DNA of 21,732 bases from a virus (lineage: Duplodnaviria; Heunggongvirae; Uroviricota; Caudoviricetes): positions 1 through 21,732 of IMG/VR virus record IMGVR_UViG_2663763286_000005; one strand, 5' to 3'. Both the position numbers and the translations under genes were made by a program. A model generated the notes under the pieces. The model was not told where the DNA came from and searched no databases. It saw only the letters and a program-made list of their open reading frames with translations. Positions 15,489-21,732 of this stretch are shown here, one piece after another. Position 1 is the first letter of the stretch. The number at the start of each line of letters is the position of its first letter.

Positions 15489-16865
15489 ATGGCTACTTGG
15501 CAAGGAACAAACGGCGGATTGTTGGCTGGTATCGGTGGTGTCAACTCAAACGCTCCGAGCGTAAATGACATCGGCAATACGCTTCAGCTTATCAGGCAGA
15601 ACAATGATATTGAGCGTTCAGGCGCTAACAATGTTGGGCTGACTGCTTTGCAAGGCCTTTCAGGTATTGCAGGGGTGTTTCAGCAGGAAAAGCAGGCTCA
15701 GCGGCAGAAAGAATTTCAGCAGGCGTATGCTAATGCTTATGCGTCTGGTGATCGCGGTGCTTTGCGTCAGTTGGCTACTCAATATCCAGACCAGATTGAA
15801 TCCGTTCGTAAAGGCATGGGATTCATTGATGAAGACCAGCGCAATTCTATCGGCATCTTAGCGGCTGGCGCACGCCTTGCGGCCTCGTCTCCAGAAGCAA
15901 TGCAATCATGGCTGCAAAACAACGCCAAGGAACTGACTCGCGTCGGTGTTGACCCTAATAACGTTGCTCAGATGTATCAGCAGAATCCTTCAGGATTTGG
16001 TGAGTTTGTTGATCACCTTGGGATGGCTGCACTTGGTCCGATTGACTACTTCAATGTTCAGGACAAGATGGCTGGTCGTGAGATTGACCGAGGTAGGCTG
16101 GCAGAGACAATCCGCAGCAATCAGGCCAGCGAAGCACTTCAGGCGAGAGGGCAAAACCTTTCCTATCAGTCAGCAATGACTGGACACGGACTTGCAGCAG
16201 AAAGACTGGCACTTGATAAGCAGAAATTCGGTTTTGAAGTACAACAGGCACAAAAGAAGGCCGAGGAACTTATTAATGCTGCGCCAAAATTATCAGTGAA
16301 CATGGAAAAGGCTATAGAAAAATCAGCAGGTGATGCGGCAGCTAGTCGTAATGCTGCCGATTCAATGACAACGCTCGCTGACACGCTGGAGAAGGAGAAG
16401 CCAACTCCTGGTTTGTTCGGTAACGCTGAAAATATGTTCTCTAAGCTTACGGGGCAAGATAACTACCTCCGAGATATGCGGATTAGATTCAACCAACTAG
16501 CCAATGCGCAGGCAACCAAGCTTCTCCCTCCCGGCCCTGCATCAGATAAGGATATTGAGTTTGCAAGGAAAGGCATTCCAAGCGAAACGGATAATCCAAT
16601 GGTCATGGCTCGATGGTTAAGGGGTATGGCAAAAATGGAAAGTAATAACGCGAAGTTCAACGAGTTTAGGTCAGAGTGGATGAGTGCAAACGGCAGCCCA
16701 GGACAATCTGATCGCAACCGAAACATCATGGGGATGGATGTTAAGAAGGGTGAATCATTGAACTCTGCGGCAAAACGTTTTCTTTCCTCAAGTTATGGCG
16801 ATAGCCAACCTCAACAGCAATTGTCCGATGACGAATTAATTAGCAAATATCTCGGAGGGCAGTAA
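15489..16865 (+). CDS. ejection protein (P22 gp20-like)
   Basis: 458 aa, by synteny and size. Confidence 0.7.
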
Positions 16866-18787
16866 TGGCTTATAGTCGTGAACAATTGATGACGGCGTTA
16901 AGGAATGCGGATGCTGCTGGTGATACTGAGGGAGCACGTCGCATCGCTCAGATTCTGTCCTCCAGTAATCAACCAACTCAAAACCAAAAGCAGCCTGTAG
17001 AACAGCAAGATGGATTTATGTCTGACCTCGGCGAAGCAGTAAAAGAAACTGGTCGCGGACTGGTGCAGGCTGGTGTAAATGTGGCAAATATACCAGCATC
17101 AGTTGCCGATGCTGTAACAAGCGCGGCGGCATGGGCTGGCGGTAAACTCGGTATTGGCGATGGAACATATCAACCAGCGCCACGAGTAACAACTCAGGGA
17201 TTAGAGCAGGCGTTTGGACTTCAGCAAGGTGCTCTGACTCCACAAACGACAGAAGGTAGGGTGTTTGCGGAGGCATTGCCTTACCTGGCTACTGTTGGCG
17301 TTGGCGGCGCTTCAACTCAGGCGCCAACACTTGCTGGTCGAATTACTCAAGGTGCAGCCCGTCTTCTGGCAGAAAACGCAGTCGGATCGCTCGCCGCAAA
17401 CAGTGAGAAAAATGATGCGGGAAAACTGGCAACAGATATAGGTGTTGGCATGCTAACAGGTGGTGCTGTTAATACTGTTGCAAAAGGGCTTGAGCGTGGA
17501 ATAACTGCCTTTAAAGGTGATATTGCGCCAGAAGTGGCGAAGAAAATTGCCACATCAGAATCGATGGGCGTGACACCAATGACATCTGATGTTATCCCGC
17601 CGAAAAATGCTTTCACTCGCGGCCTTACTCAGGATGCCGAGGGGGCTTTGCTCGGGACAGGCTCAAAGCGAGCGGAGCAATATGCAACGCGTAGTAAGCT
17701 GGTAAGTAATTATTTTGACCGTTTTGGTGAGTACAACCCTGATGATGTTGTGAAATCTCTGACCACCACGTTAAGGGGACGGAAGGATGACGCTGGCGCT
17801 GTTATCAATGACGTCACCAATAAAATGGGTAATGCCGCAGTTGATACCACAAACACTATGAATGCTCTGAATACAGCGATCGCAAGACAGGAACGGCTTG
17901 GGACGTCTGCCAATCAAAGCCTGCTTACATCCTTGCGTAACCTACGTGAAGAATTAGCAAACCCTGCAACTGATTTGGATGTTACGTTTGATCTATTGCG
18001 TCAGCACAGAACAGCATTTAGATCTAATGTTCAGGGAGATGCTATGGTCTTCCCCAACCAGGCAAAAGCAGAAACCAATATGGTAGAGAATGCAATGTCA
18101 AAAGACCTTCGTAACGCAGTTGCAAAAAAACTCGGTGCATCAGACGCAGCAAAATACCTTAAAGCAAATTCCGATTATGCAAACGTTTATAATAAGGTGC
18201 TTAATAAAAACATTGCTAACAAGCTCAACAAGGCAAGCAGTGAAGCCAGTCCTGAGCTTATAAATACCGTTGTATTAAGCAGAAAACCATCTGACGTGAA
18301 ACGAATCTGGAGCGCATTGGATGATAAAGGGAAAGATGCTATGCGCGCAGCTTACGTCAGCAAAATAGCGGAAAAGGCCGGTGACTCTCCAGCCAAGTTC
18401 ATCACTGAAGTTAATAAGCTTAAATCTCAGTCAGGCGGTGAAATTTACAACACTATTTTTTCTGGAAAGCACATGAAAGAGCTTGATGCTCTTCATGAAG
18501 TTCTACAGCAAACAGCAAGGTCAGACACCGCAAATGTAGTAACTCAGACGGGGCAATCGCAAGCCAACAGGATAAGGACGATTGGCGCAACTGCAACCCT
18601 TGGTGTATCACTGGGACTTGAAGCAGGTTTCGGTGCAATCATGCGCTTGTACGAGTCCAAAGCAGCAAGGAATGCCCTCTTACGTCTGGCAAACACTAAA
18701 TCTGGAACACCAGCCTATGAAAGAGCGTTAAGTAACGCTGCAAATGCCGTCAGGCCGCTGTTTGCTACTGAGGCAACACAGCAGTAA
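16865..18787 (+). CDS. ejection protein (P22 gp16-like)
   Basis: 640 aa, by synteny and size. ATG overlaps the gp20 stop. Confidence 0.7.
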
Positions 18788-18811
18788 CGTATGGGAAATT
18801 GGATTCAATCT

Positions 18812-19201
18812 CTAACATTTTCTTTTTACTTTTCCAACAAAAGCTTTGGTTGAATCCATATTTCCATAACCGGAAATGGTTTTTGACATTAAAACTGTTC
18901 CAGTAGGATGTATTACCCATGAGTCGATAACGCGTTGAGTTTCGCCATTCGCGCCGATTCCTATGATGGAGTTTTTAGACAATGCTTTGTAAGCCATGCC
19001 GCCCGCATCTGTCCCAGAATATGTGATGCTGGCATCTTCACCGCTTGTCTTAATGATGAATGTTCCACTAAAACCATCTTCTTCCGGATGGAAATTATTT
19101 CGTTCTGAATAGCTTATTCCGCGCATATCTCCAACGACCCAGCACTCTGCTGTAGCCCCAAAAGATATGAATAAGAACATAGCAGCAAGAAATTGCTTCA
19201 C
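18812..19201 (-). CDS. hypothetical secreted protein (accessory)
   Basis: GTG start at 19199-19201 with AAGGAGG 5 nt upstream on the minus strand. Signal peptide MKQFLAAMFLFISFGATA. Cys near both ends of the mature part. Opposite strand to the virion genes. Confidence 0.6.
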   Translation of the reverse strand: MKQFLAAMFLFISFGATAECWVVGDMRGISYSERNNFHPEEDGFSGTFIIKTSGEDASITYSGTDAGGMAYKALSKNSIIGIGANGETQRVIDSWVIHPTGTVLMSKTISGYGNMDSTKAFVGKVKRKC

Positions 19202-19318
19202 ACCAACCTCCTTAGTTTTGAGCAGGATACCATGAAAAAAGTAAACATCTTTTGCCTACTTCACATTTGAATGGTTTGTCATTAGGATGTTTCCGGTTTT
19301 TTAAATATGGAAATTGAT

Positions 19319-19738
19319 ATGAAGAGGATTATTGGCGTCGTTGCTGGCGCTATGATGTTATCTGGGTGCGCAACTATTGTTGGTGATGAAACGCAACTTG
19401 TGCAAGTGAACAGCAACCCTTCCGGTGCGAGCTTTAAGGTAAAAGATGAATCAGGCGTGATTGTTGCGCAAGGCAAGACTCCACAAGGAGTAACTCTTGC
19501 CAAGTCAGATGGTAGTTATTTTGGCAAAAAGAGCTACCAGATCACTATGGAAAAGGATGGGTACGAACCAGTTACCCTGCCAATCAAAGCCAATGCCAAT
19601 GGTTGGTATATTGGTGGAAACCTTGTGTTTGGTGGGTTAATTGGTTGGCTTGCTGTTGATCCATTTAATGGTGGGATGTATACACTGAAGCCAAAAGAGG
19701 CAAATGCATCTCTTATACCTTCCACGAAGCAAGATTAA
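19319..19738 (+). CDS. hypothetical lipoprotein (accessory)
   Basis: Signal peptide with lipobox LSGC (MKRIIGVVAGAMMLSGC). Gly/Trp-rich hydrophobic C-terminal segment. An alternative start at 19307 exists. Followed by a strong terminator. Confidence 0.7.
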   Translation: MKRIIGVVAGAMMLSGCATIVGDETQLVQVNSNPSGASFKVKDESGVIVAQGKTPQGVTLAKSDGSYFGKKSYQITMEKDGYEPVTLPIKANANGWYIGGNLVFGGLIGWLAVDPFNGGMYTLKPKEANASLIPSTKQD

Positions 19739-19744
19739 GAAATG

Positions 19745-19769
19745 AAACCCACCGTCAGGTGGGTTTTTT
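19745..19769 (+). terminator. intrinsic terminator
   Basis: aaacccacc-gtca-ggtgggttt followed by a T-run. Confidence 0.7.
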
Positions 19770-19782
19770 ATAAGGAGTAATC

Positions 19783-20040
19783 ATGATTTACCCATCAAAC
19801 AACCCACCAGTTTGCCTGATTGGATACCAGCCTTGCAGTTTTTATGGAATTAATTATGCCATGCTCAAGAGCCTTGTTAGCATCCAAAATGGTCGAGTCT
19901 GCTATCAGGGATGCCCACCTAATATGGGTTCCGATGTCGATATTGAACGTCTCAACGAAGCGATCAAGATCGTTATCGAGGCATTTCCCGTACTCTCTCA
20001 ATCTGGCATGGTCGGCGGCTGGGGTGGCAAAGCCCCATAA
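19783..20040 (+). CDS. hypothetical small Cys-rich protein
   Basis: 85-aa ORF with AAGGAG 6 nt upstream. Four Cys. No family recognised. Confidence 0.5.
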   Translation: MIYPSNNPPVCLIGYQPCSFYGINYAMLKSLVSIQNGRVCYQGCPPNMGSDVDIERLNEAIKIVIEAFPVLSQSGMVGGWGGKAP

Positions 20041-20329
20041 TAGAGGATGTAACAGGAATCTTGATAATGGGTTTGCGAAACGTTCTGAGCCAGCCAGGAA
20101 AACGATATTAGCTATGGATTCAACATTGCTTATGTTGTGAGTTCTAACGGTAACAGGGAGTGACTTAAGAAAGTTATACGCAGTAAAACCAGCGGAGTTT
20201 CCCCTCCCTGACTTGATATATGGATATTTAATTCAGTTGCGCCTTGAGATAATGCGGTGAGACAGTGGTTCTGAAGTTGCCCAACAGTGGCGGTGTTAAC
20301 GGGGCATAAGAAATGAATTGTGTGCAGCA

Positions 20330-20584
20330 TTATTTATCATCCTTGCCATAAATCTTTTTAAGTGTCTCAAACACAACAGTCTTGAACTGCTCTGCCTGCT
20401 GATCAGCCAAGCGTTCAGCTTCGTCGCGATAGCCAGTCACAGGCGATGGTTTTGATAGAGCATCTTGGACGATTTGTAACAACTCGGAGTTCATTGATCT
20501 CCCATTCGCCTCCGCCCTGAATTTTAATTTCTCCCTTACTTCCATAGGCATACGGAAGTTAAAGTGCGGATCATCTCTAGCCAT
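20330..20584 (-). CDS. mnt: Mnt repressor (P22 immI)
   Basis: 84 aa, N-terminal ~55 residues recalled as near-identical to P22 Mnt (ARDDPHFNFRMPMEVREKLKFRAEANGRSMNSELLQIVQDAL...). Divergent from arc. Confidence 0.95.
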   Translation of the reverse strand: MARDDPHFNFRMPMEVREKLKFRAEANGRSMNSELLQIVQDALSKPSPVTGYRDEAERLADQQAEQFKTVVFETLKKIYGKDDK

Positions 20585-20606: not shown

Positions 20607-20635
20607 TTGACATGATAGAAGCACCCTACTATATT
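20607..20635 (+). promoter_or_regulatory. Pant promoter
   Basis: TTGACA at 20607-20612, 17-nt spacer, TATATT at 20630-20635. Matches the P22 Pant layout. Confidence 0.75.
20612..20632 (+). promoter_or_regulatory. Arc operator
   Basis: 21-mer atgatagaagcaccctactat between the -35 and -10 of Pant. One difference from the P22 operator as recalled. Confidence 0.7.
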
Positions 20636-20641
20636 CTCAAT

Positions 20642-20674: not shown

Positions 20675-20836
20675 ATGAAAGGAATGAGCAAAATGCCGCA
20701 GTTCAATTTGCGGTGGCCTAAAGAAGTATTGGATTTGGTCCGCAAGGTGGCGGAAGAGAATGGTCGGTCTGTTAACTCTGAGATTTATCAGAGAGTAATG
20801 GAAAGCTTTAAGAAGGAAGGGCGCATTGGCGCGTAA
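20675..20836 (+). CDS. arc: Arc repressor (P22 immI)
   Basis: 53 aa, matches P22 Arc as recalled ([52 protein letters not shown]). ORF-track start 20612 is upstream of the real start. Confidence 0.95.
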
Positions 20837-20904
20837 AGTTGAAGCCCCAACTGCGGGAACAGTCAGGGCTTCGGTATCAACAAATCGGATTAGGAAATAT
20901 TGAC

Positions 20905-21571
20905 ATGAAAAGTATAGCAAAGGCACAAAACGATTTCACCATCTTCAAATTTGGCGACAGTGAAATTCGCGTCATTAACAAGTGCGGCGAGCCGTGGTTT
21001 GTAGCTAAAGATGTTTGTGATGCTTTAGCTTTGACTAACTCACGCAAGGCGCTTACTGCACTTGATGACGATGAAAAGGGAGTAACTTTAAGTTACACCC
21101 TTGGTGGTGAGCAGAATCTAAGCATTGTGAGCGAATCAGGTATGTATACATTGGTTCTGCGCTGCCGCGATGCAGTCAATAAAGGTTCAGTCCCGCACAA
21201 ATTCCGCAAGTGGGTAACAGCAGAAGTTCTGCCTTCAATTCGCAAACATGGCGAGTATGTAAAAGGAAAGAAAACCACTGTGGAGGAAAGAACACCGCTA
21301 CGCGATGCAGTAAACATGCTGGTAGGAAAGAAAGGACTTCGCTATGATGATGGATACAATATGGTTCATCAGCGTTTTGGTATTGACAGCATTGATGAAC
21401 TTTCAATTGAACAAATCCCGCTGGCCGTAGAGTACATCCACAGGGTAGTGCTTGAAGGCGAGTTTATCGGCAAACAAGAGAAGAAAGCAAACGAGCTTTC
21501 TGCAAAAGAAGCAAACAGCCTTGTATGGCTATGGGATTATGCCAATCGCTCACAGGCATTATTCCGCGAAC
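20905..21571 (+). pseudogene. ant: antirepressor Ant, interrupted by IS insertion after about codon 222
   Basis: Hand-translated: [43 protein letters not shown]... (P22 antirepressor N-terminal motifs). The frame runs into the IS-derived sequence at 21572. Missing from the ORF track because no stop occurs before the window end. Confidence 0.8.
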
Positions 21572-21732
21572 TGAACCGCCCCGGGTTTCCTGGAGAGTAT
21601 TTTATCTGTGAACTCAGGCTGCCAGATCATTATTTCCGATGGAAGCATAATAAGCTTTTTCTGCTTCTGCCGGAGGAATATGGCCCAGCCTTTCCAGCAA
21701 TCGTCGATTGTTATACCAGTCCACCCACGTTA
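21572..21732 (-). mobile_element. IS3-family insertion sequence, IS629/IS1203-like, partial (terminal inverted repeat plus transposase 3' end)
   Basis: Terminus TGAACCGCCCCGGG... starts at 21572. The minus strand encodes ...[38 protein letters not shown]-stop. Recalled as near-identical to the IS629 right end. Confidence 0.8.
21614..21732 (-). CDS. IS3-family transposase OrfB (DDE/rve integrase), C-terminal fragment
   Basis: Minus-strand frame ending at stop 21614-21616 (tca on the + strand). Its 5' end lies beyond the window. Confidence 0.8.

What the first reader, a model, noticed from the sequence alone, without database searches (positions are those of the whole stretch)
18788..20329. 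Accessory (moron) locus between the ejection genes and immI: divergent secreted protein, lipoprotein and small Cys-rich protein
This is the position where P22 carries sieA. Here it holds three uncharacterised genes with envelope-targeting signals: a signal-peptide protein on the minus strand, a lipobox lipoprotein, and an 85-aa four-Cys protein, each with its own ribosome-binding site and a terminator. Prophage-encoded envelope proteins at this hotspot are strong candidates for superinfection exclusion, receptor masking or another undescribed host-protection function.
Basis: partly seen in the sequence, partly recalled or inferred. Interest (0 to 1): 0.6.

Follow-up and report, generated by a model that had tools for sequence, protein, structure and literature searches.

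The report
Prophage accessory genes with antisense gene pair
The gap between the DNA-ejection genes and the immunity-I switch of this P22-like E. coli prophage holds four genes, not three: a secreted relative of the old phage-434 "Hex" exclusion protein, an outer-membrane lipoprotein, and a small gene that lies antisense inside a (here frameshifted) ClpP-like protease gene and appears to be under selection of its own.

Summary
The three ORFs are real and at the stated coordinates. The locus is the already described "ant moron" of P22-like phages. ORF-A (18812-19201, minus) has a family-wide signal peptide and an invariant N/C-terminal cysteine pair, and models as a beta-barrel. It is a clear homologue of phage 434 Hex (hhalign 99.8%), the gene genetically shown to exclude P22, so the exclusion idea is well supported for this gene. 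ORF-B (19319-19738) is a lipobox lipoprotein of a large family that recurs as a moron in tail or ejection modules. Its 98.6%-identical orthologue in phage Gally is strongly transcribed from the prophage while the neighbouring structural genes are silent. It is translationally coupled to mnt and carries a 1-bp frameshift in this window. ORF-C (19783-20040) lies codon-aligned antisense inside its 3' half. ORF-C is not a shadow ORF: close relatives vary only at its synonymous positions, ClpP codons that would be antisense stops are depleted, and ORF-C occurs alone where the ClpP gene is truncated. ORF-C has no envelope signal and its function is unknown.

The parts
16865..18787 (+). gp16-type DNA-ejection (DNA transfer) protein gene; left border of the accessory region
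   Evidence: phrog_770 'DNA transfer protein', 1e-228. Annotated in the 99.9%-identical E. coli SMN013SH2 prophage.
18812..19201 (-). ORF-A: Hex-family secreted protein, 129 aa. GTG start at 19201-19199, SD AAGGAGG at 19207-19213, signal peptide residues 1-18, Cys20 and Cys129.
19202..19318 (.). Divergent intergenic region. Promoter-like site for ORF-B at 19260-19288 (TTCACA-17-TAGGAT). No sigma-70-like site found for ORF-A.
   Evidence: Consensus scan. This is a consensus match only, not evidence of function.
19319..19738 (+). ORF-B: lipoprotein, 139 aa (alternative ATG at 19307). Lipobox LSGC, with the Cys17 codon at 19367-19369 and Ala at +2. Ig-like/PEGA-like beta-sandwich, followed by the invariant Gly-rich hydrophobic motif NGWYIGGN.VFGGLIGWL.VDPFNGGMYTL.P.
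   Evidence: phrog_6823, 9e-86. Pfam PEGA 0.004, below its cut-off. 726 homologue clusters. Alignment A1. AF2 pLDDT 76, with the sandwich above 90. Only generic Ig-like folds found. Gally orthologue is transcribed in the lysogen.
19745..19772 (.). Bidirectional intrinsic terminator hairpin (AAACCCACC-GTCA-GGTGGGTTT plus T-run) shared by the convergent ORF-B and ClpP-like genes. It lies immediately upstream of the ORF-C SD.
   Evidence: One search reports the minus-strand reading. The plus-strand T-run is visible. Annotated as a terminator at the same place in epsilon34.
19783..20040 (+). ORF-C: 85-aa small protein gene, SD AAGGAG at 19772-19777. Codon-aligned antisense to ClpP-like codons 99-178.
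   Evidence: phrog_7758, 1e-61. Substitution pattern in 19 alleles. Stand-alone copies L090/L091 and L093, the last annotated by PGAP as WP_157924994.1. Intact in 54 of 54 loci. No TM segment or signal peptide.
19795..20330 (-). ClpP-like serine-protease gene, 178 aa when intact. A pseudogene in this window through loss of one G at 20195/20196 (codon about 45). Its start overlaps the mnt stop (TAATG, 20328-20332).
   Evidence: Pfam CLP_protease 4.3e-12. PDB 9uxt PpClpP1, 4.6e-35. Lies directly downstream of mnt in more than 40 loci.
20330..20584 (-). mnt (Arc/Mnt ribbon-helix-helix repressor); first gene of the mnt-clpP-like operon
   Evidence: Pfam Arc 4.9e-30 and Repressor_Mnt 3.5e-12.
20607..20640 (.). 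Divergent Pant / Pmnt promoter pair
   Evidence: TTGACA-17-TATATT (+) and TTGAGA-17-TATCAT (-). Same feature annotated in epsilon34.
20675..20836 (+). arc
   Evidence: Pfam Arc 2.7e-30. RefSeq annotation in L001.
20837..20903 (-). sar antisense RNA
   Evidence: Rfam RF00262, 71.6 bits, E 2.7e-14.

Best explanation
The interval is the left part of the 'ant moron' (accessory plus immunity-I region) of a P22-like E. coli prophage. It holds four genes in three transcription units.

(1) ORF-A is a member of the phage 434 Hex family. It is exported by a cleavable signal peptide and folds into a small periplasmic beta-barrel closed by an N-to-C disulfide. By analogy with hex genetics, it makes the lysogen refractory to superinfecting P22-type phages. 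Given its predicted compartment, the block most likely falls at the envelope or DNA-delivery step.

(2) ORF-B is an independently transcribed lipoprotein moron. It is probably anchored in the inner leaflet of the outer membrane (Ala at +2). It carries an Ig-like domain and a conserved glycine-rich hydrophobic tail, and is expressed from the prophage under host-like conditions. Its target is unknown; an envelope-modifying or receptor-masking role is the working guess.

(3) On the minus strand, Pmnt drives mnt and a translationally coupled ClpP-like protease. This protease is of the divergent, N-terminally truncated PpClpP1 type. It has a conserved Ser-His pair but no conserved third triad residue. 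In this window it is inactivated by a frameshift.

(4) ORF-C is overprinted, codon-aligned, on the antisense strand of the 3' half of the ClpP-like gene. It starts directly after the bidirectional terminator with a strong SD. It is therefore translated from rightward transcripts, meaning late-operon or read-through RNA that runs opposite to the mnt-clpP RNA. In the E. coli/Salmonella clade it is a protein under purifying selection that survives loss of the ClpP gene.

Shown here: gene structures, family memberships, selection patterns, contexts, and orthologue expression for ORF-B. Inferred: compartments, exclusion activity, which transcripts carry ORF-C, and any function of ORF-C.
For: ORF-A and Hex homology:
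- tblastn gives 27% identity over the full length to 434 Hex, Sf6 gp38, HK446, HK633 and Sf101, all next to the repressor gene.
- hhalign 99.8%, E 4.7e-30. Both hit phrog_2651.
- hex- prophages no longer exclude P22 (PMC3564112).
- Relatives of 48% and 37% identity sit in the same position, convergent on gene 16, in other P22-like phages. Another sits downstream of a CI repressor.

ORF-A secretion and fold.

ORF-B:
- Lipobox invariant across the family.
- The family is inserted between T and H, between I and J, or before the tape-measure gene in lambdoid and Proteus prophages.
- Gally GALLYPH_14 (98.6% aa identity) reads log2 fpkm 9.8-11.0 in the B1, B6 and MB1 samples, against about 3-4 for the adjacent injection genes.

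ClpP-like gene.

ORF-C:
- In 19 distinct alleles, variable sites by ClpP codon position are [1,0,10] in codons 1-98 but [7,3,0] in codons 99-178. All 7 first-position changes are synonymous in ORF-C. Fisher p = 2.5e-4.
- The changes are spread over many alleles.
- TTA/CTA/TCA codons number 15/203 in the last 80 codons against 119/335 upstream, across 16 lineages (p = 1e-14). Control A-ending codons are 31% against 35%.
- ATG plus GGAG abuts the ClpP stop in many lineages.
- L090/L091 share homology with the window only over 19786-20042, and there the ClpP frame is truncated and interrupted by a stop.
- L093 keeps ORF-C while the ClpP N-terminus is replaced.
- ORF-C is intact in 54 of 54 loci, while ClpP-like is broken in 6.
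Against: - No experiment or expression data exist for ORF-A, ORF-C or the ClpP-like gene.
- The only published biochemistry on Hex proposes a cytoplasmic action on RecA-stimulated repressor cleavage (PMC3564112). That conflicts with a periplasmic exclusion mechanism.
- No promoter was found for ORF-A.
- The ORF-B orthologue fell below the Gally authors' moron threshold in LB. The family also occurs outside prophages.
- For ORF-C, other ClpP-like subclades show an ordinary sense-strand substitution pattern in the overlap.
- Antisense amino-acid conservation at depth is no higher than in the non-overlapped control half: mean z 0.80 against 0.83.
- The L001-L047 comparison favours the ClpP frame: omega 0.28 against 0.87.
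- The close-clade signal rests on only 10 variable sites.
- The codon-aligned antisense frame is the one most prone to long chance ORFs.
Confidence: 0.62

Rival explanations
1. ORF-C is only a shadow ORF of the ClpP-like gene. The real content of 19783-20330 is a single minus-strand gene, and the plus-strand ORF, its SD and its PHROG family are annotation artefacts.
For: ORF-C is in the codon-aligned antisense frame, where stops arise only from TTA/CTA/TCA codons. RefSeq annotates only the ClpP-like gene in most genomes. There is no excess antisense amino-acid conservation at depth. Other subclades show sense-type substitution patterns. Only 7 protein clusters were found for ORF-C.
Against: There are zero changes at ClpP third positions across the 80 overlap codons, against 10 in the 98 upstream codons. 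Seven ClpP first-position changes are all synonymous in ORF-C. The homology block in L090/L091 matches ORF-C's borders exactly while the ClpP frame is dead. ORF-C is retained in every copy where ClpP-like is broken. The depletion of antisense-stop codons is specific.
Confidence: 0.12
2. The antisense ORF is kept open and translated for the sake of the rightward (late) transcript, for example to protect RNA that must cross a reverse-oriented moron from polarity or decay. The peptide itself has no function.
For: In every context examined the ClpP-like gene is reverse-oriented inside a late operon, and the antisense ORF is co-directional with the late genes. This holds between the tape-measure and tail genes in L061; between the lysis and terminase genes in L054; between tail genes L and K in PhiR12_1; and between gene 16 and gene 9 in the window. 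Openness and the ATG+SD are conserved, but the deep amino-acid sequence is not.
Against: The ORF covers only about 255 of roughly 800 antisense nucleotides that the late RNA must cross. In the E. coli clade the amino-acid sequence itself is under purifying selection (7 synonymous against 3 non-synonymous sites, roughly omega 0.1). ORF-C is kept as a separate module after the ClpP gene is lost.
Confidence: 0.15
3. ORF-A and ORF-B are lysogenic-conversion factors that act on the bacterial host's interaction with animals or stress (envelope homeostasis, survival in macrophages), not on phages.
For: The ORF-B orthologue in Gally is low in LB and high in the B1, B6, MB1 and MB6 samples, with log2FC 3.84 for macrophage 6 h against LB. 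The ORF-B family also occurs as a chromosomal gene in Enterobacter. No similarity to Cor, Llp or SieA exists beyond the signal peptide.
Against: ORF-A's family includes the one genetically defined member (hex), and its phenotype is phage exclusion. Both families sit repeatedly next to genes for the DNA-delivery apparatus or the prophage repressor.
Confidence: 0.25
4. ORF-A works as published for Hex: inside the cytoplasm it protects the prophage repressor from RecA-stimulated autocleavage and so stabilises lysogeny.
For: PMC3564112 reports that hex deletion raises spontaneous induction in recA+ but not recA- hosts. It also reports that a 6-kDa Hex fragment blocks cleavage of the 434 and P22 repressors in vitro.
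Against: Hex and all 50 aligned relatives carry a typical cleavable signal peptide. A Cys lies two residues after the predicted cleavage site (invariant), and a Cys at or near the C-terminus is nearly invariant. The confident model is a closed beta-barrel. The in vitro work used an MBP fusion and an internal fragment, not the mature protein. Here the gene is not in the repressor operon.
Confidence: 0.12

Closest known systems
Phage 434 Hex ('heterologous exclusion' / 'repressor protection protein'); also Sf6 gene 38 and its HK446, HK633 and Sf101 homologues
   Same: Same family as ORF-A: hhalign 99.8%, shared phrog_2651, same length, same signal peptide followed by the ECW motif, the ETW motif, and a C-terminal G.C. 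Prophage-borne accessory gene. The genetically defined phenotype of hex is exclusion of P22, the phage type that carries ORF-A here.
   Different: Only 27% identical. hex is co-transcribed with cI from PRM, whereas ORF-A sits in the late region, convergent on gene 16, as its own unit. The published Hex mechanism is cytoplasmic (RecA/repressor), which the family's predicted export does not fit. No phenotype has been tested for ORF-A.
P22 SieA
   Same: Occupies the same variable slot between gene 16 and the immI/tailspike genes. It is prophage-expressed and blocks DNA delivery by P22-like phages (PMC10883804).
   Different: SieA is an inner-membrane protein. None of ORF-A, ORF-B or ORF-C matched any family named for superinfection exclusion beyond a signal-peptide match. 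ORF-A is soluble and secreted, ORF-B is a lipoprotein, and ORF-C is cytoplasmic. No direct alignment with a SieA sequence was made.
epsilon34 gene 15 / Gally GALLYPH_14 / the 'ant moron' of P22-like phages (Villafane et al. 2008, PMC2629481)
   Same: These genes are 97.8-98.6% identical orthologues of ORF-B at the same position, with the same terminator. The region as a whole is the published, rapidly fluxing ant moron.
   Different: epsilon34 and Gally lack both the ClpP-like/ORF-C module and the Hex-type gene; their gene 14 (hkcB) and GALLYPH_13 are unrelated to ORF-A. No function has been published for gene 15.
Pseudomonas plecoglossicida ClpP1 (PDB 9uxt; PMC12900304)
   Same: Best solved relative of the ClpP-like protein, E 4.6e-35 over the full length. 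Both are short, lack the canonical N-terminal region, and lack a conserved Asp at the third triad position.
   Different: PpClpP1 is a chromosomal paralogue that forms mixed tetradecamers with the canonical ClpP2. The prophage protein is encoded in the mnt operon of a mobile immI module. Its assembly, partners and substrates are untested, and it is frameshifted in this window.
Sie lipoproteins Cor (phi80/N15), Llp (T5) and Ltp (TP-J34)
   Same: Phage-encoded lipoproteins that block entry of related phages at the envelope. ORF-B is also a phage-borne lipoprotein placed beside the genes for the DNA-delivery machinery. This is a functional analogy only.
   Different: The only sequence match is to the Cor signal peptide (phrog_1119, E 0.0036, residues 5-24). 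ORF-B has a different size and domain make-up, and no exclusion phenotype is known for it.
Experimentally supported antisense overlapping genes of E. coli (e.g. nog1/citC, asa, laoB, pop; recalled from the literature, not retrieved here)
   Same: A short protein-coding gene fully embedded antisense in a longer, older gene.
   Different: Here the evidence is evolutionary rather than from expression: selection signatures, and survival of the embedded gene after loss of the mother gene. The pair sits in a mobile phage module where the two strands belong to opposite life-cycle programmes. A full-text search for such a pair involving a prophage ClpP gene found nothing.

Membership tests
Hex family (phage 434 hex; phrog_2651) | Full-length sequence/profile homology to 434 Hex | tested here: met
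   hhalign of the 50-member ORF-A profile against Hex: probability 99.8%, E 4.7e-30, 124 aligned columns. tblastn E 1e-4 to 2e-5. Both proteins hit phrog_2651 at about 1e-60.
Hex family (phage 434 hex; phrog_2651) | Prophage accessory gene expressed in the lysogen | tested here: inconclusive
   Prophage-borne, oriented against the late operon, with a strong SD. Relatives lie downstream of CI repressors. No promoter was found for ORF-A and no expression data exist.
Hex family (phage 434 hex; phrog_2651) | Excludes superinfecting P22-type phage | not testable with these tools
   Known only for 434 hex (Susskind & Botstein 1980, as cited in PMC3564112).
Sec-exported periplasmic protein (ORF-A) | n-h-c signal peptide with an AxA-type cleavage site | tested here: met
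   MK-QFLAAMFLFISFG-ATA|EC. KD(12) 2.3. The same architecture appears in all shown family members. No dedicated predictor (SignalP) was available.
Bacterial lipoprotein (ORF-B) | Lipobox [LVI][ASTVI][GAS]C at the end of a signal peptide | tested here: met
   MLSG|C. Cys17 and Ala18 are invariant in 30 homologues of 55-81% identity. Ala at +2 suggests outer-membrane sorting; this is an inference from the E. coli Lol rule.
PEGA domain (PF08308) | Score above Pfam's gathering threshold | tested here: not met
   17.5 bits against a cut-off of 20.8, E 0.004. The AF2 model does give an Ig-like beta-sandwich, and some sources name relatives 'PEGA domain-containing'. The fold resembles PEGA, but membership is not established.
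P22 SieA / Cor / Llp exclusion proteins | Sequence homology to a known exclusion protein | tested here: not met
   No Pfam, PHROG, NCBIfam or PADLOC hit for ORF-B or ORF-C apart from a signal-peptide-only match to Cor. ORF-A matches only Hex. No direct comparison with a SieA, Cor or Llp sequence was made.
ClpP peptidase family (PF00574) | Profile match above threshold | tested here: met
   Intact orthologue 46.7 bits against a cut-off of 20.2. PDB ClpP chains score from 1.6e-8 to 8.2e-4 among those listed, and PpClpP1 scores 4.6e-35.
ClpP peptidase family (PF00574) | Ser-His-Asp catalytic triad | tested here: inconclusive
   Ser (VESIAN) and His (LLHPL) are invariant in 14 divergent homologues. 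The position aligned to the third residue varies (D/N/A/S), as in PpClpP1 with its Ser-His-Pro triad.
ClpP peptidase family (PF00574) | Intact reading frame in this window | tested here: not met
   One-base deletion at 20195/20196 splits the gene into 66- and 68-aa ORFs.
Antisense overlapping (dual-coding) gene pair | Purifying selection detectable in the embedded frame | tested here: met
   In the close clade, the overlap has 6 synonymous and 3 non-synonymous variable codons in the ORF-C frame, against 1 and 8 in the ClpP frame. No ClpP third-position changes occur in the overlap; Fisher p = 2.5e-4. The signal was not seen in other subclades.
Antisense overlapping (dual-coding) gene pair | Mother gene also under selection | tested here: met
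   ClpP codons 1-98 show 10 synonymous against 1 non-synonymous change. The frame is intact in 48 of 54 loci. For L001 against L047, omega is 0.28 in the overlap.
Antisense overlapping (dual-coding) gene pair | Embedded gene is translated | not testable with these tools
   Only indirect evidence exists: a strong SD and a conserved ATG+GGAG in relatives.

The most novel reading that the evidence does not exclude
A mobile immunity-I module of temperate enterobacterial phages carries a true dual-coding segment. A ClpP-like protease gene is read leftward with mnt in the lysogen. A younger gene (ORF-C), overprinted on its antisense strand, is read rightward with the late operon. The two programmes of the phage therefore use the two strands of the same DNA, and each transcript is antisense to the other. 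ORF-C has since become independent of its mother gene in some phages. In addition, the Hex family (including 434 Hex) would be a periplasmic beta-barrel protein that blocks P22-type DNA delivery, which would revise the published cytoplasmic mechanism.
Probability: 0.4. Interest if true: 0.78.

Novelty: new variant of a known kind. Interest (0 to 1): 0.66.

Why it matters
Three separate points.

(1) Hex and P22-like prophages. A 45-year-old genetic observation (434 hex excludes P22) is tied here to a family of secreted beta-barrel proteins. P22-like prophages themselves carry these genes at the sieA slot. This gives a directly testable candidate for a second, periplasmic exclusion system against P22-type phages. 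It also questions the only published mechanism for Hex.

(2) Antisense overlapping genes. Their existence in bacteria and phages is still disputed because the evidence usually comes from expression data. Here the evidence is evolutionary: a switch of the constrained codon phase exactly at the ORF border, specific avoidance of antisense stops, and survival of the embedded gene after decay of the mother gene. The pair lies in a module whose two strands belong to lysogenic and lytic transcription.

(3) Annotation practice. Standard pipelines call only one of the two genes, and the ClpP-like gene is easily missed when frameshifted. The ORF-B lipoprotein family is a recurrent, well-expressed moron that has no assigned function.

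Tried and rejected
- PADLOC: nothing for any of the proteins, including the intact ClpP-like protein and Mnt.
- NCBIfam: only far-sub-threshold hits.
- Pfam on all 50 ORF-A relatives: nothing.
- PDB sequence searches with the ORF-A and ORF-B profiles and with ORF-C: nothing meaningful.
- hkcB (epsilon34 gp14) and GALLYPH_13, which occupy ORF-A's slot in other phages, are not Hex relatives.
- I first read Emek orf61/69/77 as a broken ClpP/ORF-C module; tblastn shows they are unrelated.
- The genome-contig scan for the ClpP-like protein returned only 4 loci. The metagenome scan for ORF-C added no new alleles of the close clade.
- Deep-divergence test for antisense amino-acid conservation: negative.
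- Head-maturation-protease reading of the ClpP-like gene (PHROG names; phiv205-1 annotation): rejected. The gene lies in the mnt operon on the anti-late strand, is only 178 aa, and moves with immI between phage types.
- The second plus-strand ORF, 19820-20140 (106 aa, TTG start): no family and no support.
- Literature searches for a PEGA lipoprotein exclusion factor, or for an antisense gene in a prophage clpP, found nothing relevant.
Full report
OBSERVATION

The window is the late region of a P22-like prophage. Over 18700-20400 it is 99.9% identical to E. coli SMN013SH2, differing by a single gap.
- a gp16-type ejection gene at 16865-18787 (phrog_770);
- to the right, mnt (20330-20584, minus), the divergent Pant/Pmnt promoters, arc and the sar RNA.

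The three ORFs exist. The stretch between gene 16 and the tailspike gene is the published, highly variable 'ant moron' of P22-like phages, which holds sieA in P22 (PMC2629481; PMC10883804). The locus is a mosaic:
- only 3 of 5,426 complete E. coli genomes carry this exact combination;
- the individual cassettes recur with other partners;
- the slot next to the ClpP-like gene holds either ORF-B, a Panacea-domain protein or a YafO-family toxin.

ORF-A (18812-19201, minus)

Gene structure and family.
- The GTG start with an AAGGAGG SD five bases upstream gives MKQFLAAMFLFISFGATA|ECW, a standard signal peptide.
- An exhaustive HMMER search found 86 representative relatives of 125-135 aa.
- In a 50-member alignment every sequence has the signal peptide. 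The Cys two residues after the predicted cleavage site is invariant, and a Cys at or next to the C-terminus is nearly invariant, along with W95, G111 and G123.
- No member has a Pfam domain.
- AlphaFold gives a confident all-beta barrel (pLDDT 92.6). It resembles only generic eight-stranded barrels.

The link to Hex. tblastn against phage genomes hits, over the full length at 27% identity, the gene immediately downstream of the repressor in phage 434 and lambda imm434 (annotated 'repressor protection protein'). It also hits HK446, HK633, Sf101 and Sf6 gene 38. That gene is hex.
- The ORF-A family profile aligns with 434 Hex at 99.8% probability, E 4.7e-30.
- Both proteins hit phrog_2651 at about 1e-60.
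- Hex has the same signal peptide-ECW start and the same C-terminal Cys.
- According to PMC3564112, Susskind and Botstein showed that Salmonella lysogenic for lambda imm434 excludes superinfecting P22, and that hex- prophages do not; hence 'heterologous exclusion'.

Genomic position of relatives.
- Relatives of 48% identity (a tandem pair) and of 37% identity sit at the same place, convergent on gene 16, in other P22-like phages.
- Another lies downstream of a CI-type repressor.

It is a P22-like prophage carrying, at the sieA slot, a member of the one family genetically known to exclude P22. The SieA paper does not mention Hex.

The family's predicted export and disulfide do not fit the published cytoplasmic mechanism of Hex, which is inhibition of RecA-stimulated repressor cleavage. 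That mechanism was shown with an MBP fusion and a 6-kDa internal fragment. I infer a periplasmic block of entry. This is inference, not shown.

ORF-B (19319-19738, plus)

Gene structure and family.
- Homologues start at the second ATG.
- The lipobox (LSG|C) and the following ATIVG are invariant. So is a C-terminal motif, NGWYIGGN.VFGGLIGWL.VDPFNGGMYTL.P.
- The family has 726 clusters across Enterobacterales.
- The Pfam PEGA match is below threshold.
- The model has a confident Ig-like sandwich (residues 25-93). The glycine-rich hydrophobic stretch is modelled with low confidence. Fold hits are generic.

Context.
- The 68%-identical E. coli relative lies between tail genes T and H of lambdoid prophages.
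- The 77% relative lies between I and J.
- The Proteus relative lies just before the tape-measure gene.
- An Enterobacter relative is chromosomal.

The family is therefore a recurrent moron of tail and ejection modules.

Expression. The 98.6%-identical orthologue GALLYPH_14 of phage Gally reads as follows in the supplementary tables of PMC9928086:
- log2 fpkm 9.8-11.0 in the B1, B6 and MB1 samples, and 9.4-9.5 in MB6;
- 4.8-6.2 in LB;
- about 3-4 for the adjacent injection genes throughout;
- log2FC 3.84 for macrophage 6 h against LB.

The authors did not count it as a moron because it was below their five-fold cut-off in LB. So it is transcribed from the prophage independently of lytic genes, in a condition-dependent way. 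Its function remains unknown. Ala at +2 suggests an outer-membrane anchor.

The missed gene: ClpP-like (19795-20330, minus)

- RefSeq annotates a 178-aa 'ATP-dependent Clp protease proteolytic subunit' on the minus strand of the near-identical genome.
- It matches Pfam CLP_protease (4.3e-12).
- At 4.6e-35 it matches the solved Pseudomonas plecoglossicida ClpP1. That protein is a divergent, N-terminally truncated paralogue with a Ser-His-Pro triad that forms mixed complexes with the canonical ClpP (PMC12900304).
- In the prophage family Ser and His are invariant, while the third position varies.
- Its ATG overlaps the mnt stop (TAATG).
- In more than 40 viral contigs it lies directly downstream of an mnt gene, whatever the Mnt type.
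- In the lambdoid phage PhiR12_1 the whole module sits between tail genes L and K. The module there is the ClpP-like gene (with its antisense 3' half matching ORF-C), an mnt-position gene, an arc-position gene and an antirepressor.
- It is present in 155 of 5,426 E. coli genomes.
- In the window, one G is missing at 20195/20196. This is not a homopolymer run. The frame is split into the two minus-strand ORFs seen.

ORF-C (19783-20040, plus)

ORF-C lies entirely inside the 3' half of the ClpP-like gene, in the codon-aligned antisense frame. That is the frame most prone to chance ORFs, so I tested it.

(a) Substitution pattern in close relatives. There are 19 distinct alleles of 98-100% identity.
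- In ClpP codons 1-98, variable sites fall at ClpP codon positions [1,0,10]; 10 of the 11 variable codons are synonymous.
- In codons 99-178 they fall at [7,3,0].
- All seven first-position changes are synonymous in ORF-C, and six of them change the ClpP protein.
- There are no third-position changes at all in the overlap. Fisher p = 2.5e-4 for the phase switch.
- The variants are scattered over many alleles.

(b) Antisense-stop codons. ClpP codons that would be antisense stops (TTA, CTA, TCA) make up 119/335 Leu/Ser codons upstream of the overlap, against 15/203 in the last 80 codons. This is across 16 lineages down to 52% identity (p = 1e-14). Other A-ending codons differ little, at 35% against 31%.

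(c) Translation start. Many divergent homologues have an ATG abutting the ClpP stop, preceded by GGAG, right after a terminator.

(d) Stand-alone ORF-C in metagenome contigs. Two contigs carry an 86%-identical ORF-C with its own terminator and SD. Homology to the window covers exactly 19786-20042. The ClpP frame there is cut to residues 97-178 and contains a stop, and there is no mnt.

(e) ORF-C kept where ClpP-like is broken. In E. coli 09-00049 the ClpP N-terminus is replaced, and PGAP annotates ORF-C itself. Across 54 loci ORF-C is always intact, while ClpP-like is broken in six.

Against:
- Other subclades show ordinary sense-type patterns.
- At depth the antisense protein is no better conserved than in the control half.
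- L001 against L047 favours the ClpP frame, although synonymous divergence is much lower in the overlap than upstream.

My reading is as follows. The ClpP frame is ancestral. An antisense ORF has long been kept open. In the E. coli/Salmonella P22-like clade it encodes a protein under purifying selection that can outlive its mother gene.

ORF-C has no signal peptide or TM segment and no detectable relatives of known function. Three of its four Cys are not conserved in the L047 homologue.

In every context examined, the ClpP-like gene is reverse-oriented inside a late operon, so the antisense ORF is co-directional with the late genes. This suggests that ORF-C is read from late or read-through transcripts, and the ClpP-like gene from Pmnt. 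This is inferred, not shown.

COMPARISON AND NOVELTY

Already known:
- the region (the ant moron);
- Hex, as a genetic entity and as a protein;
- epsilon34 gene 15;
- PHROG families for all three ORFs.

Not found in the literature searched:
- the assignment of the gene-16-proximal gene of P22-like prophages to the Hex family;
- the secreted beta-barrel nature of that family;
- the ClpP-like/ORF-C antisense pair and its selection signature;
- the recurrent placement of the ORF-B family in tail modules.

VERDICT

Noticed in passing
window 20905-21732: The antirepressor gene ant (P22AR C-terminal domain protein in the near-identical genome) starts at about 20905. Its homology to the reference prophage stops at about 21573. 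From there the window continues into a sequence present in thousands of places in E. coli genomes, i.e. an insertion sequence; a transposase C-terminal fragment is readable at 21614-21724 on the minus strand. Together with the ClpP-like frameshift, this suggests that the immI region of this prophage copy is decaying.
   Followed up: partly
L141 1501-1905 (phage 434 hex) and alignment A2: 434 Hex itself has a typical cleavable signal peptide (MIRIAALLSILLTTSANS|ECW) and the family's terminal Cys pair. The published cytoplasmic mechanism is protection of repressor from RecA-stimulated cleavage, shown with an MBP fusion and a 6-kDa fragment. That is hard to reconcile with the predicted periplasmic location.
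   Followed up: partly
L139 (Escherichia phage PhiR12_1) 3001-5060: The whole module also sits inside the tail operon of a lambdoid siphophage, between tail genes L and K. The module comprises a terminator, the ClpP-like gene with the ORF-C sequence on its antisense strand, genes at the mnt and arc positions, and an antirepressor. The immI module therefore moves as a unit between phage types.
   Followed up: partly
L110 3359-4164: In a divergent P22-like phage the Hex-type gene next to gene 16 is present as a tandem pair of two 128-aa copies.
   Followed up: no
L113 1-7411: A 34%-identical Hex-family member lies in a long one-directional array of small unrelated genes (HEPN-like, DUF4272, DUF1761, DUF6678). 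The array is reminiscent of poly-immunity or defence-gene arrays.
   Followed up: no
L002 3869-4318; L094 1478-2502: Alternative cassettes occupy ORF-B's place in other E. coli prophages. One is a Panacea (DUF4065) domain protein. The other is a YafO-family toxin with an upstream 188-aa gene. The slot is thus often filled by toxin-antitoxin-type genes.
   Followed up: no
window 16865-18787: Residues 136-358 of the gp16-type ejection protein match a PHROG labelled 'transglycosylase' (phrog_29864, 2e-57), and residues 321-640 match one labelled 'head morphogenesis'. These are labels only and were not examined.
   Followed up: no
L090 820-1428: Downstream of the stand-alone ORF-C and before the tailspike gene lies a 202-aa ORF with no Pfam or PHROG hit. 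Its sequence looked hydrophobic on reading, so it may be a membrane protein and a possible further exclusion-type gene at this hotspot. Hydrophobicity was not computed.
   Followed up: no
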